Shown here: positions 1 through 6,540 of the stretch, piece by piece
Layout of the letters: the number at the start of each line of letters is the position of its first letter
How positions within the stretch are numbered: position 1 is the first letter of the stretch
Virus record (IMG/VR): IMGVR_UViG_2698536307_000009
Reading direction: 5' to 3' (one strand)
DNA length: 6,540 nucleotides
DNA from: a virus
Lineage: Duplodnaviria; Heunggongvirae; Uroviricota; Caudoviricetes
Notes under the pieces: model-generated
Database searches by the model: none
Told to the model about the DNA's origin: nothing
The model's input: only the letters and a program-made list of their open reading frames with translations
Translations under genes and position numbers: made by a program

Positions 1-1
1 G

Positions 2-23
2 GAAAAAATAGCCTAAATAGGCT
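2..23 (-). terminator. Putative intrinsic terminator downstream of tfa
   Basis: Minus strand reads AGCCT-ATTT-AGGCT (5-bp stem, plus 10-23) followed by ATTTTTT (plus 9-3), about 120 nt after the tfa stop. Confidence 0.4.
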
Positions 24-142
24 GATTCGATGTGTTTGCGGGAAAAAAATCGGCCCAGATCCGAGAAATTTTAATCAGCGAGTCAGCTTGGGAAGAAATG
101 ACCTGCTTATTCGCACCTTCCATAGAATTTATATGTTTTACC

Positions 143-718
143 CTACGGCAGTGCTGGCCATTCAATATCCGGTGCAGTTGATGTATCAACACGGTTCAGC
201 AACACCCGATACTTTTTCCAGGCTTCCAGCAACAAGGTTTCTTCCTCCGTTGCGATCTCCAGATCCACAGCATCCTGAAGCGGCGCTATATGCTCACTGG
301 CTATCTGCATCAGGCTGTTTTTTGTTTCTTCCGCCTCCCGGATCCGGAACAGTTTTTCTGCTTCCGTATCCTTCACCCAGGCTGTGCCGTTCCACTTCTG
401 ATATTCCCCTCCCGGCGATAACCAGGTAACATTTTCCGGTAACGGACCGAGTTCAGAAATAAATAACGCGTCGCCGGAAGCCACGTCATAAACCGTTTTA
501 CCCCGATGATCTTCAACGAGATGCCACGATGCCTCATCACTGTTGAAAACAGCCACGAAGCCTGCCGGAATATCTGGCGGTGCAATATCGGTACTGTTTG
601 CTGGCAGACCTGTATGAGGCGGAATATATGCGTCACCTTCACCAATAAATTCATTAGTTCCGGCCAGCAGATTATAAATTTTTATGGTCCGTGGTTGTTC
701 ACTCATTCTGAATGCCAT
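143..718 (-). CDS. tfaQ: Tail fiber assembly protein (lambda Tfa family), 191 aa
   Basis: 191-aa ORF; translation [35 protein letters not shown]...DIEWPALP matches lambda Tfa and the K-12 TfaQ/TfaR paralogs as I recall them. Start overlaps the upstream stf stop (TAATG). Symbol assigned from Qin-like gene context. Confidence 0.9.
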
Positions 719-1026
719 TACGCAAGCCTCACAATATAGTTAAATGCGATGTTTTTGACGGTGTTTTCCGCGTTACCAGCAGCGTTAACGGTGATGGTAT
801 GTCCATGTGAACCAATCGCAACGGAGTGCGTATGAGCACCAATACCGACAGTATGTGCGTGTGCACCTGCGCTTGCAGCAGTACCCGATACAGAGTGCGT
901 ATGAGCGCCTGCAGAAGAAGTGTTAACACTGTATTTAGAATAATCAGGTGATCCACTTCCCGGAGCACCACTGGAACCACCTGAAACAAATGTCATCGAA
1001 TGGGTATGTGCACCGGCTGTCCCCAT
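718..1026 (-). pseudogene. Side tail fiber (Stf) C-terminal fragment, remnant lacking its N-terminus
   Basis: 102-aa ORF with GAHTHS/HxH repeats typical of the distal receptor-binding tip of lambda Stf-like fibers. Begins at an internal ATG directly at the junction with J-derived DNA; translationally coupled to tfa. Confidence 0.7.
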
Positions 1027-2360
1027 GCATTTACCGCCCGGACTGTCAGCCTGTAATTTCCCAGCGCCAGCTGCGTGAAGCGATATGTGGTTTCCGTCGT
1101 CCGGGCCGTGCTGACCAACCGCTCACTGCCGTCGTCCGCTGCCACGGTCAGGCGAAGCATAAAGCTCACCCCCTTCACCACCTTCGGCGTGTCCCAGCGC
1201 GCCAGCACCTGGTATTCCCCGCTGTCTGCGGTGACTTCTGCGGTCAGGTGCTGAACTGCTGGCGGCGTGACACCATTCACCGTGCCGCTCTGGTCACCGT
1301 CAAAGTGCGCCCCGTTATCCACGATGGCTTCTTTCTCCGGTACATGCTGCACGGCAGTGATGGCATACGTACCGTCATCGTTCTCACGGATACTCACACA
1401 GCGGAACAGGCGCTGACGCAGCGTCGGCAGCTTCAGCCCCCACACGCTGTACTCGGCAACGCCGTCAGGAACCCGGCTCACTTTCACCTTCACGCCGTCG
1501 GTGACGGACTGGACCTCCACGCTCACCGGATTACCCTGCCCGTCAACCAGGCTTATCAGCGTGGTGCCGGAGGATGGCAGCGTGATTTCACGGTCGAGCG
1601 TCAGTGTCCGCGTCTGGCTGTTCACCGCCAGCACGCGCCCGCCGATGCTGATCCCCGCATAGTCATCATCACAGATTTCAATGACATCACCTGGTACATG
1701 GCGAAGCCCTTCGGCACCCACGCTGAAGTCCACGGTCTGCGTTTCCAGCAGTTCCGTTTTAATCAGCCACAGCCCGGCTCGGTGCGCCTGCCCCCGCCTG
1801 GTACAGCCAAAGGCATCCATCTTCGTGACGTTACGACCGTAACGGGCAATGGCCTGCGTGTCCTCCACAAGCTCTGTCGCCGTCTCCCAGCCGTTATCCG
1901 GGTCAATCCAGTTCACCTCAACGGCATTATGGCGGTCCTTCAGGGCGCTGAAGCTGTAGCGGAACGGCGCGCCATCATCCGGCATCACCACATTACTGCG
2001 GTTATAGGTCCACACCTTATCTGATGGTCGGTCCTGCACGAACGTCAGCGTCTGCCCGTTCCATACCGGCATACAGCGCATCGCCGAGCAGAAATCACTG
2101 AGAACATCCCACGCCTTACGCTGTGTGGTCAGCCAGGCATTACAGGTGATGCGCGGCTCCGTGCCGCCAAAACCGTCCGGCACCGACTGGTCGCAACACT
2201 GGCCGATGACATACAGCGCCCATTTATCCACATCTGCCGCACCAAGACGTTTACCCATGCCGTAGCGCGGGTGGCTGGAGATCTGTCTCGCTGGCCTGCC
2301 GCAGTTCTTCAACTTCCCGGCGCAGCTTTTCGTTCTCAATTTCAGCATCCCTTTCGGCAT
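993..2360 (-). pseudogene. Internal fragment of lambda J-like host specificity (tail tip) protein; J homology roughly 1017..2271
   Basis: 455-aa ORF; from YGMGKRLGAADVDKWALYVIGQ to [14 protein letters not shown] it matches the central part of lambda J (about residues 330-770 of 1132 from memory). The first ~28 codons are Nu1 DNA read out of frame; the last 7 codons (PVHIPIR) are stf DNA read out of frame. Confidence 0.85.
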
Positions 2361-2508
2361 ACCATTTTATGACGGCGGCAGAATCATAAAGCACCTCATT
2401 ACCCTTGCCACCGCCTCGCAGAACGGGCATTCCCTGTTCCTGCCAGTTCTGAATGGTACGGATACTCGCACCGAAAATGTCAGCCAGCTGCTTTTTGTTG
2501 ACTTCCAT
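2251..2508 (-). pseudogene. Terminase small subunit Nu1 homolog, N-terminal fragment (85 aa, winged-HTH DNA-binding domain retained)
   Basis: MEVNKKQLADIFGASIRTIQNWQEQGMPVLRGGGKGNEVLYDSAAVIKWYAERDAEIENEKLRREVEELRQASE matches lambda Nu1 residues 1-~77; after DLQP it diverges (PALRHG-stop) where J-derived DNA is fused, near plus 2271/2272. Native start codon and upstream cosB are intact. Confidence 0.85.
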
Positions 2509-2519
2509 TGTTCATTCCA

Positions 2520-2730
2520 CGGACAAAAACAGAGAAAGGAAACGACAAAGGCCAAAAAGCCCGCTTTCAGCACCTGTCGTTTCCTTTCTTTTCAGGGGGT
2601 ATTTTAAATAAAAACATTAAGTTACGACGAAGAAGAACGGAAACACCTTAAACCGGAAAATTTTCATAAATAGCGAAAACCCGCGAGGTCGCCGCCCCGT
2701 AACCTGTCGGATCACCGGAAAGGACCCGTA
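2520..2730. other. Lambda-type cohesive end site: cosB (2520-2685, with Nu1-binding R-like elements), cosN (2686-2697), cosQ side (2698-~2730)
   Basis: Plus 2686-2697 AGGTCGCCGCCC is the reverse complement of the lambda 12-nt cohesive end GGGCGGCGACCT. Flanks match the lambda left end (CGCGGGTTTTCGCTATTTATGAAAATTTTCCGG...) and right end (...CGACAGGTTACG) as recalled. Elements with the GTTTCC core are visible between cosN and the Nu1 start. Confidence 0.85.
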
Positions 2731-2896
2731 AAGTGATAATGATTATCATCTACATATCACAACGTGCGTGGAGGCCATCAAACCACGTCAAATAATCAAT
2801 TATGACGCAGGTATCGTATTAATTGATCTGCATCAACTTAACGTAAAAACAACTTCAGACAATACAAATCAGCGACACTGAATACGGGGCAACCTC

Positions 2897-3130
2897 ATGT
2901 CAACGAAGAACAGAACCCGCAGAACAACAACCCGCAACATCCGCTTTCCTAACCAAATGATTGAACAAATTAACATCGCTCTTGAGCAAAAAGGGTCCGG
3001 GAATTTCTCAGCCTGGGTCATTGAAGCCTGCCGCCGGAGACTGTGCTCAGAAAAAAGAGTTTCTTCTGAAGCAAACAAAGAAAAGAGTGACATTACTGAA
3101 TTGCTCAGAAAACAGGTCAGACCAGATTGA
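2897..3130 (+). CDS. ynfO: Small basic protein YnfO-like (77 aa), predicted ribbon-helix-helix (Arc/MetJ-like) DNA-binding fold
   Basis: ATG-initiated 77-aa ORF in lambda right-end-like DNA. Basic N-terminus (KNRTRRTTTR), then a strand-helix-helix pattern (NIRFP / NQMIEQINIALEQKG / NFSAWVIEACRRRL). Position and size fit K-12 Qin ynfO; the fold is inferred from the pattern only. Confidence 0.65.
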   Translation: MSTKNRTRRTTTRNIRFPNQMIEQINIALEQKGSGNFSAWVIEACRRRLCSEKRVSSEANKEKSDITELLRKQVRPD

Positions 3131-3187
3131 AGCAATTTAGATAATCGTGCAGACTACGCCCCCTCATATCACATGGAAGGTTTATCT

Positions 3188-3598
3188 ATGGATCAGGTAG
3201 TCATTTTTAAACAAATATTTGATAAAGTTCGAAACGATTTAAACTATCAATGGTTTTATTCTGAGCTAAAACGTCACAATGTCTCACATTACATTTACTA
3301 TTTAGCCACAGAGAATGTTCATATTGTATTAAAAAATGATAATACAGTGTTATTAAAGGGCCTAAAAAACATTGTGTCTGTCAAATTTTCAAAGGATAGG
3401 CATCTTATAGAAACGACCTCTAATAAGCTGAAATCCAGAGAGATCACATTTCAGGAATACAGAAGAAACCTTGCTAAAGCAGGAGTTTTTCGGTGGGTTA
3501 CAAATATCCACGAACAAAAAAGATATTACTATACCTTTGATAATTCATTACTATTTACTGAAAGCATCCAGAAAACTACACAGATCTTACCACGCTAA
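3188..3598 (+). CDS. ydfO: YdfO/YbcV family protein (DUF1398), 136 aa
   Basis: [34 protein letters not shown]...QILPR. Start placed at ATG 3188, which has a GGAAGG Shine-Dalgarno 7 nt upstream (3175-3180); the in-frame ATG at 3173 has none. Confidence 0.85.
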
Positions 3599-3606
3599 AC
3601 CATAAC

Positions 3607-3635
3607 GTCCGGCTTCTCTCACTCCTGAGCCGGAC
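3607..3635 (+). terminator. Hairpin 9 nt after the ydfO stop (possible terminator, weak U-tract)
   Basis: Perfect 8-bp inverted repeat GTCCGGCT...AGCCGGAC with a 13-nt loop, followed by TGCATTGGTTTAAT. Confidence 0.3.
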
Positions 3636-3700
3636 TGCATTGGTTTAATAAAAACCATCAACAATTGTGATTTAGATATTCGGAACCATTCAAATATAAC

Positions 3701-3723
3701 AAAACCCCGTAAAAACGAGGTTT
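3701..3723 (-). terminator. Possible bidirectional terminator between convergent ydfO and gnsB
   Basis: Minus strand AAACCUCG-UUUUUA-CGGGGUUU: stem with one G-U wobble, flanked by A and U runs, about 30 nt after the gnsB stop. Confidence 0.25.
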
Positions 3724-3749
3724 ATGGATAAATTTTATTATTGAATACA

Positions 3750-3923
3750 TCAGATTAAATTAATCTTGACATCATAGCTTTCAAGACCCGTCATTTTTTC
3801 CCGTGCGGTAAACTGAATACTGGTAACTTCTTTCCCGGTCTTTTTCTTAAGTTCAATAATTTTTTTTGTTATATATTCAGAAATATCTGCTTCTGCTTTT
3901 GTTTTTAAGTTTTCAATATTCAT
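3750..3923 (-). CDS. gnsB: GnsB (GnsA/GnsB family small protein, 57 aa)
   Basis: Not in the supplied ORF track (below its size cutoff). Minus-strand translation is MNIENLKTKAEADISEYITKKIIELKKKTGKEVTSIQFTAREKMTGLESYDVKINLI. AAGAGGAA Shine-Dalgarno immediately upstream. Family and symbol from recalled GnsA/GnsB sequence and Qin gene order. Confidence 0.8.
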   Translation of the reverse strand: MNIENLKTKAEADISEYITKKIIELKKKTGKEVTSIQFTAREKMTGLESYDVKINLI

Positions 3924-3965
3924 CATTTCCTCTTTTAGTCTGTTATGACTTTCCAGTTACACAGT

Positions 3966-4000
3966 AAGTCGATTATATGGTGCAAACGTGTAAAAGATAA
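3966..4000 (-). promoter_or_regulatory. Candidate sigma70 promoter for gnsB
   Basis: Perfect -10 TATAAT (minus strand, plus 3977-3972) about 50 nt upstream of the gnsB start; the -35 at 17-bp spacing is weak (TTATCT). Confidence 0.3.
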
Positions 4001-4094
4001 GATGAAACATCGCAATAATCAACATACGATAGTCTAAATTTTACACAAACAGACAAAGAGAATTTTCCTGAATTATCAATGCAATAGCATCAAA

Positions 4095-4250
4095 TCAACT
4101 CAAGAGCCTTATTGCTGCTTCCAGAATTTCTTCTGAAGTAACATGTCGATCCGCGGCTACATAAATGACTTTATGATCTCCGGTCAGAGATGGAAACCCT
4201 GCGGCCATTACAGTAAGGTGTGTTTTTTCGCCATTTGGATATTCACGCAT
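4095..4250 (-). CDS. ynfN: YnfN-like small protein (51 aa if started at MREYPNGEK; alternative in-frame ATG at 4325 gives 76 aa)
   Basis: Open frame ending at 4095; the track's start at 4367 is TTG. The ATG at 4250 has GGAG 11 nt upstream and gives the 51-aa length I recall for K-12 YnfN. The minus-strand terminator at 4370-4389 leaves little room for a promoter ahead of the upstream starts. Confidence 0.5.
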   Translation of the reverse strand: MREYPNGEKTHLTVMAAGFPSLTGDHKVIYVAADRHVTSEEILEAAIRLLS

Positions 4251-4369
4251 GATGGTGTTAACTCCAGTCATCGCTGGCACTACCACTGCTGGTTCAGAGT
4301 TAAAAAAAACTATGATTTTTTTCATGATGTTACCGTAGTATGTGAGTATCCATCGAATAGACACCAAGC

Positions 4370-4389
4370 AAAAAAGCTCCCGAAGGAGC
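4370..4389 (-). terminator. Intrinsic terminator between cspI and ynfN
   Basis: Minus strand GCUCC-UUCG-GGAGC (GC-rich 5-bp stem, UUCG tetraloop) followed by UUUUUU; plus 4376-4389 stem-loop with the A-run at 4370-4375. Confidence 0.6.
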
Positions 4390-4596
4390 CTTCATTTTCA
4401 CTTTTTTAAATCCAACGACAGACGGCTGGCATTTAAGTATTGTGAAATATTATCAAATGTAATCATCATTGATTTACAAAAGATACATTTTGCCCCGAAA
4501 GGATTCATGTCAGAAACATCAAAAGATGATGTTCTATACTGGGAACCATGACAACACGGGCATCTAAAGTGAATATGGTTTGTAATATTGTCTACC

Positions 4597-4809
4597 TCAA
4601 AGCGCCACTACATGAACAGCGGCAGGACCTTTAGGTCCGTTCTCAATACCAAATTCAACTTCCTGATTCTCAGTTAATGTTTTGAAATCGTTGCTCTGAA
4701 TTGCTGAGAAATGGACAAACACATCTTTGCTGCCATCTTTCGGCGTGATGAAACCAAAACCTTTTTCAGGGTTAAACCATTTCACTAAACCAGTCATTTT
4801 GTTAGACAT
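4597..4809 (-). CDS. cspI: Cold shock protein, CspA family (70 aa), CspI-like
   Basis: [70 protein letters not shown] carries the RNP1 (KGFGFI) and RNP2 (VFVHF) motifs. Shine-Dalgarno AAAGGTAATAATT-ATG resembles cspA. Neighbours fit K-12 Qin cspI. Confidence 0.93.
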
Positions 4810-4989
4810 AATTATTACCTTTTGAAGAAATTAGCCCTTGGGCAGAATGGTCCGAAAAAAAATATCAGAGAGAAAAACCAACAAGGAAATCTCAAGAGGT
4901 ACAAATAATAAAATTATAACAATGACTGCTTCAGATAAATTTGTAACAAACCAGAACACCATTAACGCATGATTAACCACCCATAGCAA
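4810..4989 (-). promoter_or_regulatory. cspI promoter and long 5' leader with cold-box-like element
   Basis: Minus strand: -35 TTGCTA (plus 4989-4984), 17-bp spacer, -10 GTTAAT (plus 4966-4961), resembling cspA TTGCAT/CTTAAT. Predicted leader about 145 nt; GGTTTGTTACAAAT near its 5' end resembles the cspA cold box. Confidence 0.45.
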
Positions 4990-5171
4990 GGATTACTTTT
5001 GTAAAGAAAAACACAGCAATGAAAGAATGGCTTTATTTATTAATAAAACGTGTCATTCTGATTAAGACCTTTTATCTTACCCTTAAGATTTCAGGAATTT
5101 TGGCTCATGGAAGAGTCCTTTTTATTTAAATTTTACATTCCGCGATGTAAATGTTCCGATTTAATATTACC

Positions 5172-6195
<1,024 letters not shown>

Positions 6196-6199
<4 letters not shown>

Positions 6200-6425
6200 A
6201 GATATTTATGATGAGGACGCTCGTGCTTATTGGCAGGATTTTCAATCTTAAAGGAGTACTGATGCTGCAGATAAGACTCAACTTTTTCTGACAATTTTTC
6301 TGCTACTTCCAGGAAGACTTGCCGGACGCTCCTTCTGGCTGCTGCCTCATAAAACTCCAGCGCAGCTCCTTCAACACGGTCCATGGCGACATCCAGGTCA
6401 AAAATTTCACCGTCAAAGCGTTCTT
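6196..6425 (-). CDS. ydfR: YdfR-like protein, 5'-truncated by IS1 insertion (likely pseudogene); first ATG at 6384 gives 62 aa
   Basis: Frame is open from the stop at 6196 to the IS1 boundary at 6425/6426 with no start codon except the internal ATG at 6384, which lacks a Shine-Dalgarno. Position between the endolysin and where the holin would lie fits ydfR. Stop overlaps the rrrQ start (ATGA). Confidence 0.5.
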
Positions 6426-6540
6426 GGTAATGACTCCAACTTATTGATAGTGTTTTATGTTCAGATAATGCCCGATGACTTTGTCATGCAGCTCCACCGA
6501 TTTTGAGAACGACAGCGACTTCCGTCCCAGCCGTGCCAGG
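6426..6540 (-). mobile_element. IS1 insertion sequence, terminal 115 bp including the right inverted repeat; element continues beyond the window
   Basis: Plus 6426-6455 GGTAATGACTCCAACTTATTGATAGTGTTT is the IS1 right-end inverted repeat; the following sequence matches the IS1 3' region in reverse complement as recalled. Confidence 0.9.
6441..6540 (-). CDS. insB: IS1 transposase InsB (InsAB') C-terminal end, partial at window edge
   Basis: Minus-strand translation ends ...[19 protein letters not shown]-stop, with the stop codon at plus 6441-6443. Confidence 0.8.

What the first reader, a model, noticed from the sequence alone, without database searches (positions are those of the whole stretch)
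2520..2730. Complete lambda-type cos site retained in a prophage that has lost its packaging and structural genes
cosN is base-perfect against the lambda cohesive end and the cosB and cosQ flanks look intact, yet terminase large subunit, portal and capsid genes are absent. A superinfecting or co-resident lambdoid phage with lambda-specificity terminase could cut here and package adjacent chromosomal DNA.
Basis: partly seen in the sequence, partly recalled or inferred. Interest (0 to 1): 0.55.

Follow-up and report, generated by a model that had tools for sequence, protein, structure and literature searches.

The report
Orphan lambda-type cos in Qin prophage
The window holds an apparently working copy of the phage lambda DNA-cutting and packaging signal (cos), left behind in the well-known defective Qin prophage of E. 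coli after a 16-kb deletion removed the packaging and head genes; such sites are ordinary, being present in about three quarters of complete E. coli genomes.

Summary
A complete lambda-type cos lies at window 2532-2727 on the minus strand, in the order cosQ, cosN, I2, R3, I1, R2, R1, followed by a truncated Nu1 gene. cosQ, cosN and I2 are identical to lambda, and 388 bp run without a mismatch. The terminase-binding side (cosB) has five differences from the lambda reference. One, C53T, falls inside the annotated R3 element. None looks disabling: all five changed positions have the same state in viable phage 434 (the indel site differs by one adjacent base), each occurs in contigs with full-length terminase genes, and the TerS-contacted bases 55-63 are unchanged.

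The host element is a non-K-12 allele of the cryptic prophage Qin. A deletion equivalent to lambda 428-16346 fuses Nu1 codon 79 to the middle of J. It removes the large terminase subunit and all head genes and most tail genes.

Cutting by a lambda/434-specificity terminase supplied in trans is plausible but untested here. Packaging would run towards tfaQ, pinQ and ydfJ. No second cos is seen, so only rare, defective one-cos particles are expected.

Orphan cos sites in K-12 cryptic prophages, and their use by helper terminases, are already in the literature. Verdict: confirmed, ordinary, already known.

The parts
2721..2727 (-). cosQ (GGGTCCT), the packaging-termination subsite; equals lambda -30..-24
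   Evidence: Exact match at the correct 23-bp spacing from cosN. The position agrees with the cosQ feature in the phage 434 record. The flank is identical to lambda for 336 bp.
2686..2697 (-). cosN cohesive-end sequence GGGCGGCGACCT. Nicks are predicted between 2698/2697 on the minus strand and 2686/2685 on the plus strand. The symmetric cosN extends about 2-5 bp either side.
   Evidence: Exact match. lambda -10..+52 is identical.
2648..2680 (-). I2 segment (lambda bp 18-50), an intrinsically bent spacer essential for initiation
   Evidence: Identical to lambda. Coordinates and essentiality come from PMC4856287.
2633..2648 (-). R3 (lambda bp 50-65), the critical TerS binding site. It carries C53T at window 2645. 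Bases 55-63 are identical to lambda.
   Evidence: The R3 allele is identical to that of phage 434. The contact bases 55-63 are taken from PMC9026076.
2612..2624 (-). I1, the IHF binding site (lambda bp 74-86). A73G (window 2625) lies just outside it.
   Evidence: Identical to lambda and 434. Coordinates come from the 434 record annotation.
2575..2590 (+). R2 (lambda bp 108-123), a TerS site inverted relative to R3 and R1
   Evidence: 15-nt perfect inverted repeat with R1. Identical to lambda.
2532..2547 (-). R1 (lambda bp 152-167), an accessory TerS site. C151T (window 2548) abuts it.
   Evidence: The allele is the same as in phage 434.
2251..2508 (-). nohA', a truncated terminase small-subunit gene. 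Residues 1-79 equal lambda Nu1 with A75T, followed by 6 out-of-frame residues and a stop. It keeps the winged-HTH DNA-binding domain and lacks the TerL-binding C-terminus.
   Evidence: Pfam Phage_Nu1 1-81/164, E=1.4e-48. Translation. Lambda homology ends at bp 427.
2272..2274 (-). Deletion junction joining lambda bp 427 (Nu1 codon 79) to lambda bp 16347 (J), with 3 bp of overlap. The equivalent of lambda 428-16346 is missing: the Nu1 C-terminus, A, W, B, C, Nu3, D, E, FI, FII, Z, U, V, G, T, H, M, L, K, I and the J N-terminus.
   Evidence: blastn against lambda segments. The exact junction is present in 26 of 5426 complete E. coli genomes.
1013..2274 (-). J' fragment (lambda J aa ~281-701, 92.6% nucleotide identity)
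   Evidence: Pfam Phage-tail_3 and Ig_J. PGAP labels it 'host specificity protein J, incomplete' in near-identical genomes.
143..1026 (-). stfQ' fragment and intact tfaQ. This is the first DNA a terminase starting at this cos would package after nohA' and J'.
2897..3598 (+). ynfO (DUF3950, homologue of lambdap79) and ydfO (DUF1398, homologue of lambdap78) on the cosQ side, as at the right end of lambda

Best explanation
This is the cohesive-end site of the cryptic lambdoid prophage Qin, in a non-K-12 allele. It is a leftover. The ancestor was a lambda-like prophage. One deletion, with a 3-bp microhomology junction, removed everything from Nu1 codon 80 to J codon ~280. A second deletion removed the J C-terminus through most of stf. 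cos and its cosQ-side neighbours stayed in place. The site has every subsite of a lambda/434-specificity cos, with correct spacing and orientation. It is therefore most likely still a competent substrate for a terminase supplied in trans by lambda, 434 or a relative with the same TerS recognition helix. The inferred sequence of events is as follows. TerS and IHF bind R3-I1-R2. TerL nicks cosN at 2698/2697 and 2686/2685. Terminase stays on the cosB end and translocates DNA towards decreasing window coordinates: nohA', J', stfQ', tfaQ, then pinQ, ydfK, ydfJ and ydfI in related genomes. The cosQ-side end is left exposed to RecBCD. No second cosQ-cosN lies at packageable distance, so the expected products are a double-strand break that stimulates phage-prophage recombination and, rarely, defective one-cos heads. 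Efficient transducing particles are not expected. Shown here: sequence identity, subsite architecture, the deletion map, the population distribution, and the presence of every variant in viable phages or in contigs with intact terminase genes. Inferred: cleavage, direction of packaging and outcome. Retention is best explained by descent plus recombination with lambda-like phages, not by selection for a function.
For: Architecture and chance. Identity to lambda: 388 bp are perfect, and lambda 1-427 is 98.1% identical. Qin identity: gene order tfaQ-stfQ'-nohA'-cos-ynfO-ydfO-gnsB-ynfN-cspI-rzpQ-rrrQ-ydfR matches K-12 Qin, and window 2272-6425 is 99.7% identical to K-12. Tolerance of the cosB variants rests on several results. 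C53T, A73G, T102C, C151T and the 1-bp deletion are all shared with phage 434; at the indel the window also reads G where lambda and 434 read A, a state seen in contigs with intact terminase genes. Twenty-four phage records are 100% identical over lambda 26-81. Each variant occurs in IMG/VR contigs with full-length Nu1 and A, for example L008, L043, L063 and L013. The TerS recognition helix RTIQNWQE and the wing are invariant across the C53, T53 and A54 R3 alleles. TerS contacts bp 55-63, and mutations at 56, 58 and 59 are the ones that matter (PMC9026076, PMC4669245); all of these bases match lambda here. The specificity-determining bases T56 and C59 are lambda-type, not 21-type (PMC4669245). 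Precedents: 10 of 19 lambda x Dlp12 recombination junctions lie next to cos and are attributed to terminase breaks (PMC3945230), and terminase-defective Sp4 is packaged, most likely by Sp14 terminase, through an identical cos (PMC2669165). The requirement for a second cos is stated in PMC6687093 and PMC12829572.
Against: No experiment shows cleavage at this site. The exact combination of five variants was not found in any isolated phage; the best phage record was 98.9% identical over 461 bp. Combined effects therefore cannot be excluded. C53T lies in the annotated R3, near a predicted minor-groove wing contact 5' of the major-groove contacts (PMC9026076). Lambda virion sequencing from a K-12 host reported essentially no coverage outside lambda and its flanks (PMC7667829). 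Packaged product from orphan cos sites is therefore at best very rare, although that does not argue against cutting. In a chromosome the site is single-copy and not on a concatemer.
Confidence: 0.85

Rival explanations
1. Dead relic. The cos looks complete, but the cosB changes, especially C53T in R3 together with the altered R2-R1 spacer and C151T, have disabled terminase binding. On this view nothing happens here during infection.
For: There are five differences from the lambda reference on the cosB side, one of them inside R3. R3 is the most sensitive R element, and single transitions in it make lambda IHF-dependent (PMC4669245, PMC9026076). The K-12 Qin allele carries a different change at the neighbouring base, G54A.
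Against: All five changed positions have the 434 state, the indel site differing by one adjacent base, and 434 encodes a lambda-identical TerS DNA-binding domain. T53 and A54 are common polymorphisms: 11 and 12 of about 69 lambda-type sites in the IMG/VR sample. They sit next to full-length Nu1 and A with no change in the TerS helix or wing. The 1-bp deletion is the majority state, and the lambda reference is the outlier. The bases known to matter (55-63) and the cosN-R3 spacing are unchanged.
Confidence: 0.06
2. Retained for a function. One version is a mobilisation signal that lets lambda-specificity helper phages move the ydfJ-side chromosome or Qin cargo, a cos-phage analogue of lateral transduction or satellite piracy. 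The other is an interference module, in which the orphan cos and the DNA-binding-domain-only NohA' fragment trap or misdirect incoming terminase.
For: Three independently truncated Qin alleles all keep cos and at least the Nu1 DNA-binding domain: K-12, this window and FORC 064. The cos region is far better conserved against lambda (98-100%) than the flanking J' (92.6%), tfa (93.8%) or ydfO (84%). Satellites such as cos-PICIs do exploit helper cos specificity (PMC9026076, PMC6739421).
Against: The alleles were ascertained through cos or nearby sequence, so keeping cos is partly circular. High identity is equally explained by recent recombination with lambda-like phages, which is demonstrated experimentally for Dlp12 (PMC3945230). 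No integrase, replication, Rpp or capsid-size genes are linked in the window. There is no second cos for termination. A terminator-like hairpin follows gnsB, and no sigma-70-like promoter is predicted between it and nohA', so NohA' expression is doubtful. One chromosomal cos against hundreds of phage genomes cannot titrate terminase. The field view is that cos phages do not perform lateral transduction (PMC12829572).
Confidence: 0.07
3. Artefact. The perfect lambda identity reflects vector, cosmid or lambda-DNA contamination, or a chimeric assembly.
For: There are 388 bp of perfect identity to laboratory lambda.
Against: The same arrangement, including the Nu1'/J' junction, occurs in 26 independent complete genomes. 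Their sources include raw milk, civet, cattle, seawater and humans. The identity is embedded in a graded mosaic typical of lambdoid prophages. K-12 Qin has the homologous site.
Confidence: 0.01

Closest known systems
Bacteriophage lambda cos (cosQ-cosN-I2-R3-I1-R2-R1)
   Same: Every subsite is present, in the same order, orientation and spacing. cosQ, cosN, I2, I1, R2 and the TerS-contacted bases of R3 are identical, and the site is followed by the Nu1 start codon.
   Different: There are five substitutions or indels on the cosB side. The site is not followed by functional terminase genes. It is single-copy in a chromosome rather than repeated on a concatemer.
Phage 434 cos (OL657226, subsites annotated in the record)
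   Same: The R3 allele (T53), G73, C102, the 1-bp shorter R2-R1 spacer and T151 next to R1 are all shared. The Nu1 DNA-binding domain coding sequence matches lambda.
   Different: 434 differs from the window at C23T in I2, at several spacer bases (99, 134, 139, 145, 176) and at nine positions on the cosQ side. At all of these the window matches lambda instead. The window is therefore a lambda/434 mosaic.
cos-nohA of cryptic prophage Qin and cos-nohD of DLP12 in E. coli K-12
   Same: Same element and same locus type. The genes flanking cos are the same, 99.7% identical over window 2272-6425. These are orphan lambda-type cos sites without a functional TerL. Dlp12 cos is discussed as a terminase-cut recombination hotspot (PMC3945230). 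The lambda qin111 recombinants that defined Qin are cited in PMC5811629; details of that work are from memory.
   Different: The deletion endpoint differs. K-12 keeps about 176 aa of Nu1 fused towards stfQ. The window keeps 79 aa fused to a J fragment absent from K-12 at this position. The R3 allele also differs: K-12 has G54A and the window has C53T.
O157 Sakai Sp4/Sp14: a terminase-defective lambdoid prophage packaged through a cos identical to that of a co-resident prophage
   Same: A defective prophage keeps a cos that a co-resident phage's terminase can use (PMC2669165).
   Different: Sp4 is amplified by regional replication of the neighbouring prophage Sp5 and is excised, so circular or concatemeric substrates with repeated cos exist. 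Nothing of the kind is shown for this Qin allele.
Helper-exploiting satellites with a helper-type cos (cos-PICIs such as EcCICFT073, SaPIbov5, P4)
   Same: A helper phage's packaging signal is carried by an element that lacks its own capsid and terminase genes (PMC9026076, PMC6739421).
   Different: Satellites have integrase, replication and induction modules, a genome size suited to packaging and, in the enterobacterial (Gram-negative) cos-PICIs, an Rpp protein with a non-lambda R3. None of these is present in the window. Here R3 is lambda-type.
Lambda 'doc' (defective, one cos) particles and in-situ packaging from an unexcised prophage; lateral transduction by pac phages
   Same: Packaging starts at a chromosomal cos and runs unidirectionally from the cosB side into adjacent host DNA. 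(Sternberg and Weisberg 1975 is cited from memory and was not retrievable here.)
   Different: A cos terminase cannot make the terminal cut without a second cos. DNA therefore protrudes and tail joining is blocked (PMC6687093). Yields are very low compared with pac-phage lateral transduction (PMC12829572).

Membership tests
Lambda-type cos site (lambda/434 packaging specificity) | 12-nt cohesive-end sequence GGGCGGCGACCT within a partially symmetric cosN | tested here: met
   Exact at window 2686-2697(-). lambda -10..+52 is identical.
Lambda-type cos site (lambda/434 packaging specificity) | 7-bp cosQ (GGGTCCT) at -30..-24 from the nick | tested here: met
   Exact at 2721-2727(-), with 23-bp spacing. 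No match in 200 shuffles. The position agrees with the 434 annotation.
Lambda-type cos site (lambda/434 packaging specificity) | I2 spacer (bp 18-50) of conserved sequence and an unaltered cosN-to-R3 distance | tested here: met
   Identical to lambda with no indel between bp 1 and 136. The requirement is taken from PMC4856287.
Lambda-type cos site (lambda/434 packaging specificity) | R3 with lambda-type TerS contact bases (bp 55-63, including T56, C58, C59) | tested here: met
   bp 54-65 are identical to lambda. The only R3 change is C53T, which is the phage 434 allele. Contact bases are taken from PMC9026076 and PMC4669245.
Lambda-type cos site (lambda/434 packaging specificity) | IHF site I1 between R3 and R2; R2 inverted; R1 direct | tested here: met
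   I1 (74-86) is identical. R2 is on the opposite strand and R1 is direct. R1 and R2 form a 15-nt perfect inverted repeat.
Lambda-type cos site (lambda/434 packaging specificity) | Site-specific nicking and packaging by lambda terminase | not testable with these tools
   This needs in vitro cleavage, cosmid packaging or in vivo end-mapping. Only indirect support exists, from the viability of phages that carry each variant.
Cryptic prophage Qin | Gene order tfaQ-stfQ-nohA-(cos)-ynfO-ydfO-gnsB-ynfN-cspI-rzpQ-rrrQ-ydfR-essQ next to ydfJ | tested here: met
   The same order and PGAP gene names occur in near-identical genomes and in K-12, with 99.7% identity to K-12 over 4.15 kb. The ydfJ junction itself lies outside the window.
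Packaging-competent (autonomous) lambdoid prophage | Intact TerS, TerL, portal, protease/scaffold and major capsid genes downstream of cos | tested here: not met
   Nu1 is truncated at codon 79 and joined to the middle of J. The equivalent of lambda 428-16346 is absent, and no such genes occur in the Qin part of L001.
Phage-inducible chromosomal island / satellite with helper cos | Own integrase, regulator, replication module and, in the enterobacterial (Gram-negative) cos-PICIs, Rpp with a non-helper R3 | tested here: not met
   None of these appears among the window ORFs. R3 is lambda-type. The wider Qin integrase region was not examined for activity.

The most novel reading that the evidence does not exclude
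Orphan lambda-specificity cos sites in cryptic prophages might be functional parts of E. coli gene flow rather than inert scars. Lambda-type cos sequence, orphan or not, is present in 3984 of 5426 complete genomes, often in several copies. During lytic growth of a lambda/434-type phage these sites would be cut. In polylysogens with tandem or nearby prophages, pairs of co-oriented cos sites could then bracket chromosomal or prophage cargo at packageable spacing. That would give cos phages a lateral-transduction-like route that the field currently denies them. A second reading is that the retained DNA-binding-domain-only NohA' fragment, together with cos, interferes with incoming terminase. Nothing in this window requires either reading.
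Probability: 0.06. Interest if true: 0.55.

Novelty: already known. Interest (0 to 1): 0.15.

Why it matters
This matters little as a discovery. That K-12 cryptic prophages Qin and DLP12 keep lambda-homologous cos-Nu1 segments has been known since the lambda qin and qsr' recombinants of the 1970s and 1980s. That such sites can be used by a helper terminase or stimulate recombination is published. The practical value is as annotation. Automated pipelines do not mark cos, and no feature is annotated under any of the listed places. Anyone doing lambda-based virion sequencing, cosmid work or break-mapping in E. coli should expect chromosomal cos sites to behave as cryptic terminase targets. A modest by-product is the catalogue of natural cosB polymorphisms. 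C53T and G54A in R3 are common and are not accompanied by TerS changes, which agrees with biochemical mapping of the contacts to bp 55-63.

Tried and rejected
(1) I suspected that C53T in R3, and the independent G54A in K-12 Qin, were decay or counter-selected knock-down mutations. I rejected this. Both are frequent alleles next to intact terminase genes, and T53 is the phage 434 allele.

(2) I looked for a second cos that could complete packaging. There is none of lambda type in the window or in 30 kb of a near-identical genome. A tandem, IS-disrupted Gifsy-like prophage in strain SCPM-O-B-9504 has a co-oriented cos with a different cohesive end. It lies only 28.7 kb away, which is too short, and its TerS is of the unrelated DUF1441 type.

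(3) I tried to identify the source genome through the IS5-end/tfaQ junction. No exact match was found in 185,579 species-representative genomes, and no complete E. coli genome covers the whole window.

(4) Literature searches for direct evidence of cleavage or packaging at the Qin cos found none. The doc-particle and lambda qin111 papers are not in the library, so those points rest on memory. One search was lost to a term-length error, and searches failed for the same reason.

(5) I checked for a Chi site oriented towards the exposed end. There is one, at chance frequency.

(6) A promoter scan for nohA' expression found nothing convincing. I did not pursue the interference idea.

Full report
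**What is there**

On the minus strand of the window the lambda cohesive-end sequence GGGCGGCGACCT occupies 2686-2697. The 7-bp cosQ GGGTCCT occupies 2721-2727, exactly 23 bp upstream. The joint pattern occurs once with no mismatch, and it occurred in none of 200 dinucleotide-preserving shuffles. Three copies of the R-element core are present: R1 at 2533-2544(-), R2 at 2578-2589(+, inverted) and R3 at 2634-2645(-, one mismatch). The expected count is 0.04. R1 and R2 form a 15-nt perfect inverted repeat.

I placed the subsites using the coordinates annotated in the phage 434 GenBank record and those given by Murialdo and Feiss (PMC9026076) and Oh et al. (PMC4856287):

| Subsite | Window coordinates |
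|---|---|
| cosQ | 2721-2727 |
| cosN overhang | 2686-2697 |
| I2 | 2648-2680 |
| R3 | 2633-2648 |
| I1 | 2612-2624 |
| R2 | 2575-2590 |
| R1 | 2532-2547 |
| Nu1-type ATG | 2508 |

**How good a copy it is**

Against lambda NC_001416 the window is perfectly identical from lambda 48167 through bp 52. That is 388 bp, window 2646-3033. It covers cosQ and its flank, cosN and all of I2.

On the cosB side there are five differences:
- C53T at window 2645, inside the annotated R3.
- A73G at 2625, one base outside I1.
- T102C at 2596, in a spacer.
- A 1-bp deletion at 137/138, in the R2-R1 spacer.
- C151T at 2548, abutting R1.

So cosN is base-perfect as claimed, and cosB is close to lambda but not identical.

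**Are the cosB changes disabling?**

The evidence says no, for five reasons.
- All five positions have the same state in phage 434, a classical viable phage (at the indel the window reads GCGG-GC and 434 ACGA-AC, so one adjacent base differs). Its Nu1 coding sequence over the DNA-binding domain is identical to lambda's.
- Twenty-four phage records, including 434 and many independently isolated lambda-like coliphages, are 100% identical to the window over lambda 26-81.
- In 120 IMG/VR contigs that share cosN and the start of I2, each variant occurs next to full-length Nu1 (181 aa) and A (641 aa). Examples are L008 and L043 (C53T A73G T102C del138), L063 (also C151T and the delA137 form) and L013. 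The 1-bp deletion is the majority state, and the lambda reference is the outlier.
- The R3 alleles C53, T53 and A54 all pair with the same TerS recognition helix (RTIQNWQE) and wing (RGGGKGNEV). There is no compensatory co-variation, so these look like neutral polymorphisms.
- NMR and genetics place the TerS contacts at bp 55-63, and the mutations that impair packaging at 56, 58 and 59 (PMC9026076, PMC4669245). All of these bases are lambda-identical here. They include T56 and C59, which distinguish lambda from phage 21 specificity.

My initial suspicion was that C53T, together with the different neighbouring change G54A in K-12 Qin, marked erosion of R3. I reject that.

**What element carries it**

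The window is an allele of the cryptic lambdoid prophage Qin. In near-identical complete genomes PGAP names the genes in this order: tfaQ, tail-fibre fragment, J fragment, terminase small-subunit fragment, ynfO, ydfO, gnsB, ynfN, ynfR, ynfQ, cspI, rzpQ, rrrQ, ydfR. K-12 MG1655 Qin has the same order. Window 2272-6425 is 99.7% identical to K-12.

The blastn map against lambda gives the following:
- Window 2272-2697 equals lambda 427->1 (98.1%).
- Window 1013-2274 equals J 17608->16347 (92.6%).
- Window 153-867 equals lambda 22538->21824 (stf C-terminus plus tfa, 93.8%).

One deletion therefore joins Nu1 codon 79 to J residue ~281, with 3 bp of overlap. It removes the equivalent of lambda 428-16346: the Nu1 C-terminal domain, A (TerL), W, B (portal), C, Nu3, D, E, FI, FII and all tail genes up to J. 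A second deletion removes the J C-terminus through most of stf.

Pfam confirms the remnants and finds no terminase large subunit, portal or capsid family. The surviving NohA' ORF (85 aa) is lambda Nu1 residues 1-79 with A75T, followed by six out-of-frame residues. It is therefore the whole winged-HTH DNA-binding domain without the TerL-binding end.

**Population context**

- The exact Nu1'/J' junction is present in 26 of 5426 complete E. coli genomes.
- There are at least three different Qin deletion alleles: K-12 (about 176 aa of Nu1, then stfQ), this window, and FORC 064 (full-length nohA, then a short J fragment). FORC 064 has a 100% identical cos.
- Lambda-type cos itself is commonplace. 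A match covering at least 80% of the 211-bp interval is present in 3984 of 5426 genomes, with a median of two places per genome and up to eight. No feature is annotated under any of the listed matches.

**Likely mechanism**

The sequence supports competence for a lambda/434-specificity terminase supplied in trans. By the established lambda pathway (PMC4669245, PMC4856287), TerS and IHF would assemble on R3-I1-R2. TerL would nick at 2698/2697 on the minus strand and 2686/2685 on the plus strand. Terminase would stay on the cosB end and translocate towards decreasing window coordinates, through nohA', J', stfQ' and tfaQ. In related genomes it would continue into pinQ, ydfK, ynfT, ydfJ, ydfI and ydfZ. 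The cosQ-side end, towards ynfO and ydfO, would be exposed to host nuclease.

These steps are inferred, not shown.

The proposed consequence, packaging of adjacent chromosome, faces the known requirement of cos terminases for a downstream cosQ-cosN to make the terminal cut. Without it the DNA protrudes and tails cannot join (PMC6687093). A recent paper states flatly that cos phages do not perform lateral transduction (PMC12829572). I found no second lambda-type cosN in the window or in 30 kb of a near-identical genome.

In one strain, SCPM-O-B-9504, a tandem IS-disrupted prophage lies in the packaging direction. It has a co-oriented cos with a different cohesive end (GGGCGGGTCGGC) and a DUF1441-type small terminase. 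It is only 28.7 kb away, which is well below lambda's lower packaging limit (the limit is from memory of Feiss and co-workers).

Sequencing of purified lambda particles from a K-12 host, which carries the Qin and DLP12 cos sites, reported coverage almost exclusively at lambda and about 25 kb either side (PMC7667829).

The realistic outputs are therefore a terminase-made double-strand break that promotes phage-prophage recombination, plus very rare one-cos defective heads. The classical 'doc' particles are the precedent; I cite Sternberg and Weisberg 1975 from memory, because the paper is not in the library.

**Comparison with what is known**

The site meets every sequence-level criterion of a lambda-type cos. 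Only biochemical cleavage is untested. It is the homologue of the K-12 Qin cos and a sibling of the DLP12 cos.

De Paepe et al. (PMC3945230) note that the lambda-Dlp12 homology contains cos. [quoted passage not shown] Asadulghani et al. (PMC2669165) showed that the terminase-defective prophage Sp4 is packaged, most likely by the terminase of Sp14, which has an identical cos. Qin itself was defined through lambda qin111 recombinants (Espion et al. 1983, cited in PMC5811629; details from memory).

The site is not a PICI or satellite. No integrase, replication or Rpp genes are present in the window, and R3 is helper-type rather than island-type (PMC9026076).

**Rivals**

- A dead relic is unlikely, given 434 and the contigs with intact terminase genes that carry the same variants.
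- A selected mobilisation or interference role is not excluded, but nothing requires it. The high identity around cos (98-100%, against 84-94% in the flanks) is what recombination with lambda-like phages would produce. Keeping cos across the three alleles is partly an ascertainment effect. nohA' has no predicted promoter between it and a terminator-like hairpin downstream of gnsB.
- Contamination is excluded by the 26 independent genomes.

**Verdict**

The feature is ordinary and already known in kind and, in effect, in instance. Interest is low (0.15). The most novel reading that survives is that abundant chromosomal lambda-type cos sites give cos phages a cryptic in-situ packaging route in polylysogens, or that NohA' plus cos interferes with helper terminase. 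That reading is cheap to test, but I rate it at about 6%.

Noticed in passing
window 1-121 and 6429-6540: The Qin segment is bracketed by insertion-sequence ends. From my own recollection of the IS sequences, an IS5-family (ISKpn26-like) terminus ending ...GCTTATTCGCACCTTCC abuts the tfaQ side at 121/122. An IS1 terminus beginning GGTAATGACTCCAACTTATTGATAG interrupts ydfR at 6428/6429. No complete E. coli genome has both at these positions; the best hits cover 1-6428 or 122-6540 only by joining IS copies that lie elsewhere. The left junction is absent from 185,579 species-representative genomes. The source strain, possibly an IS-rich lineage, was not identified.
   Followed up: partly
window 2272-2274; K-12 L003 5799-6368; L130 7223-8028: There are at least three independent deletion alleles at the Nu1-to-tail junction of Qin. 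K-12 keeps about 176 aa of Nu1 and then stfQ. This window keeps 79 aa and then J aa ~281-701, with a 3-bp microhomology at the junction. FORC 064 keeps full-length nohA and then a ~100-aa J fragment. This implies stepwise decay from a more complete ancestor.
   Followed up: partly
window 2644-2645 (lambda bp 53-54); loci L006-L125: Natural polymorphism exists in the R3 element of lambda-type cos. In the IMG/VR sample about 44 sites have CG, 11 have TG, 12 have CA and 1 has TA at bp 53-54. All pair with an invariant TerS recognition helix and wing. This fits biochemical mapping of the TerS contacts to bp 55-63.
   Followed up: yes
L129 ~14165-14210 and L001 14565 (strain SCPM-O-B-9504): A second, IS66-disrupted lambdoid prophage sits in tandem with Qin in ydfJ. 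It has a DUF1441 small terminase and a ClpP-capsid fusion. Its own cos (cosQ GGGTCCT plus GGGCGGGTCGGC) is co-oriented with the Qin cos and lies 28.7 kb downstream in the packaging direction.
   Followed up: partly
window 2520-2730 versus 5426 genomes: Lambda-type cos covering at least 80% of the 211-bp interval is present in 3984 of 5426 complete E. coli genomes. The median is 2 places per genome, the maximum is 8, and 37 of all 8,770 matching places (any coverage) are on plasmids. No feature is annotated under any of the listed matches.
   Followed up: no
window 177-375 (-) and 4570-4955 (-): There are two Rfam matches above the gathering score. IS009, a candidate small RNA, lies inside or overlapping tfaQ. 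The cspA-type thermoregulator 5' UTR lies upstream of cspI.
   Followed up: no
window 5774-5781 (-): A single Chi sequence (GCTGGTGG on the minus strand, inside rrrQ) is oriented so that RecBCD entering from the exposed cosQ-side end of a cut cos would recognise it. The frequency is at chance level: 26 of 200 shuffles have at least one.
   Followed up: no
window 3173-3598 (+); lambda 47042-47575: ydfO (DUF1398) is 84% identical at the DNA level to lambda gene lambdap78. The RefSeq lambda and DE3 records label that gene 'head protein', which looks like an annotation error because Pfam finds only DUF1398.
   Followed up: no
window 718-1026 (-): The StfQ' fragment is rich in repeated G-A-H-T-H-S/V motifs (Pfam Phage_fiber repeat). 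Its 5' part runs into the J fragment with no intact start.
   Followed up: no
window 3702-3723 (-): A terminator-like hairpin lies just downstream of gnsB. No sigma-70-like promoter is predicted between it and nohA'. The truncated Nu1 fragment is therefore probably transcribed only by read-through or antiterminated late transcription.
   Followed up: no
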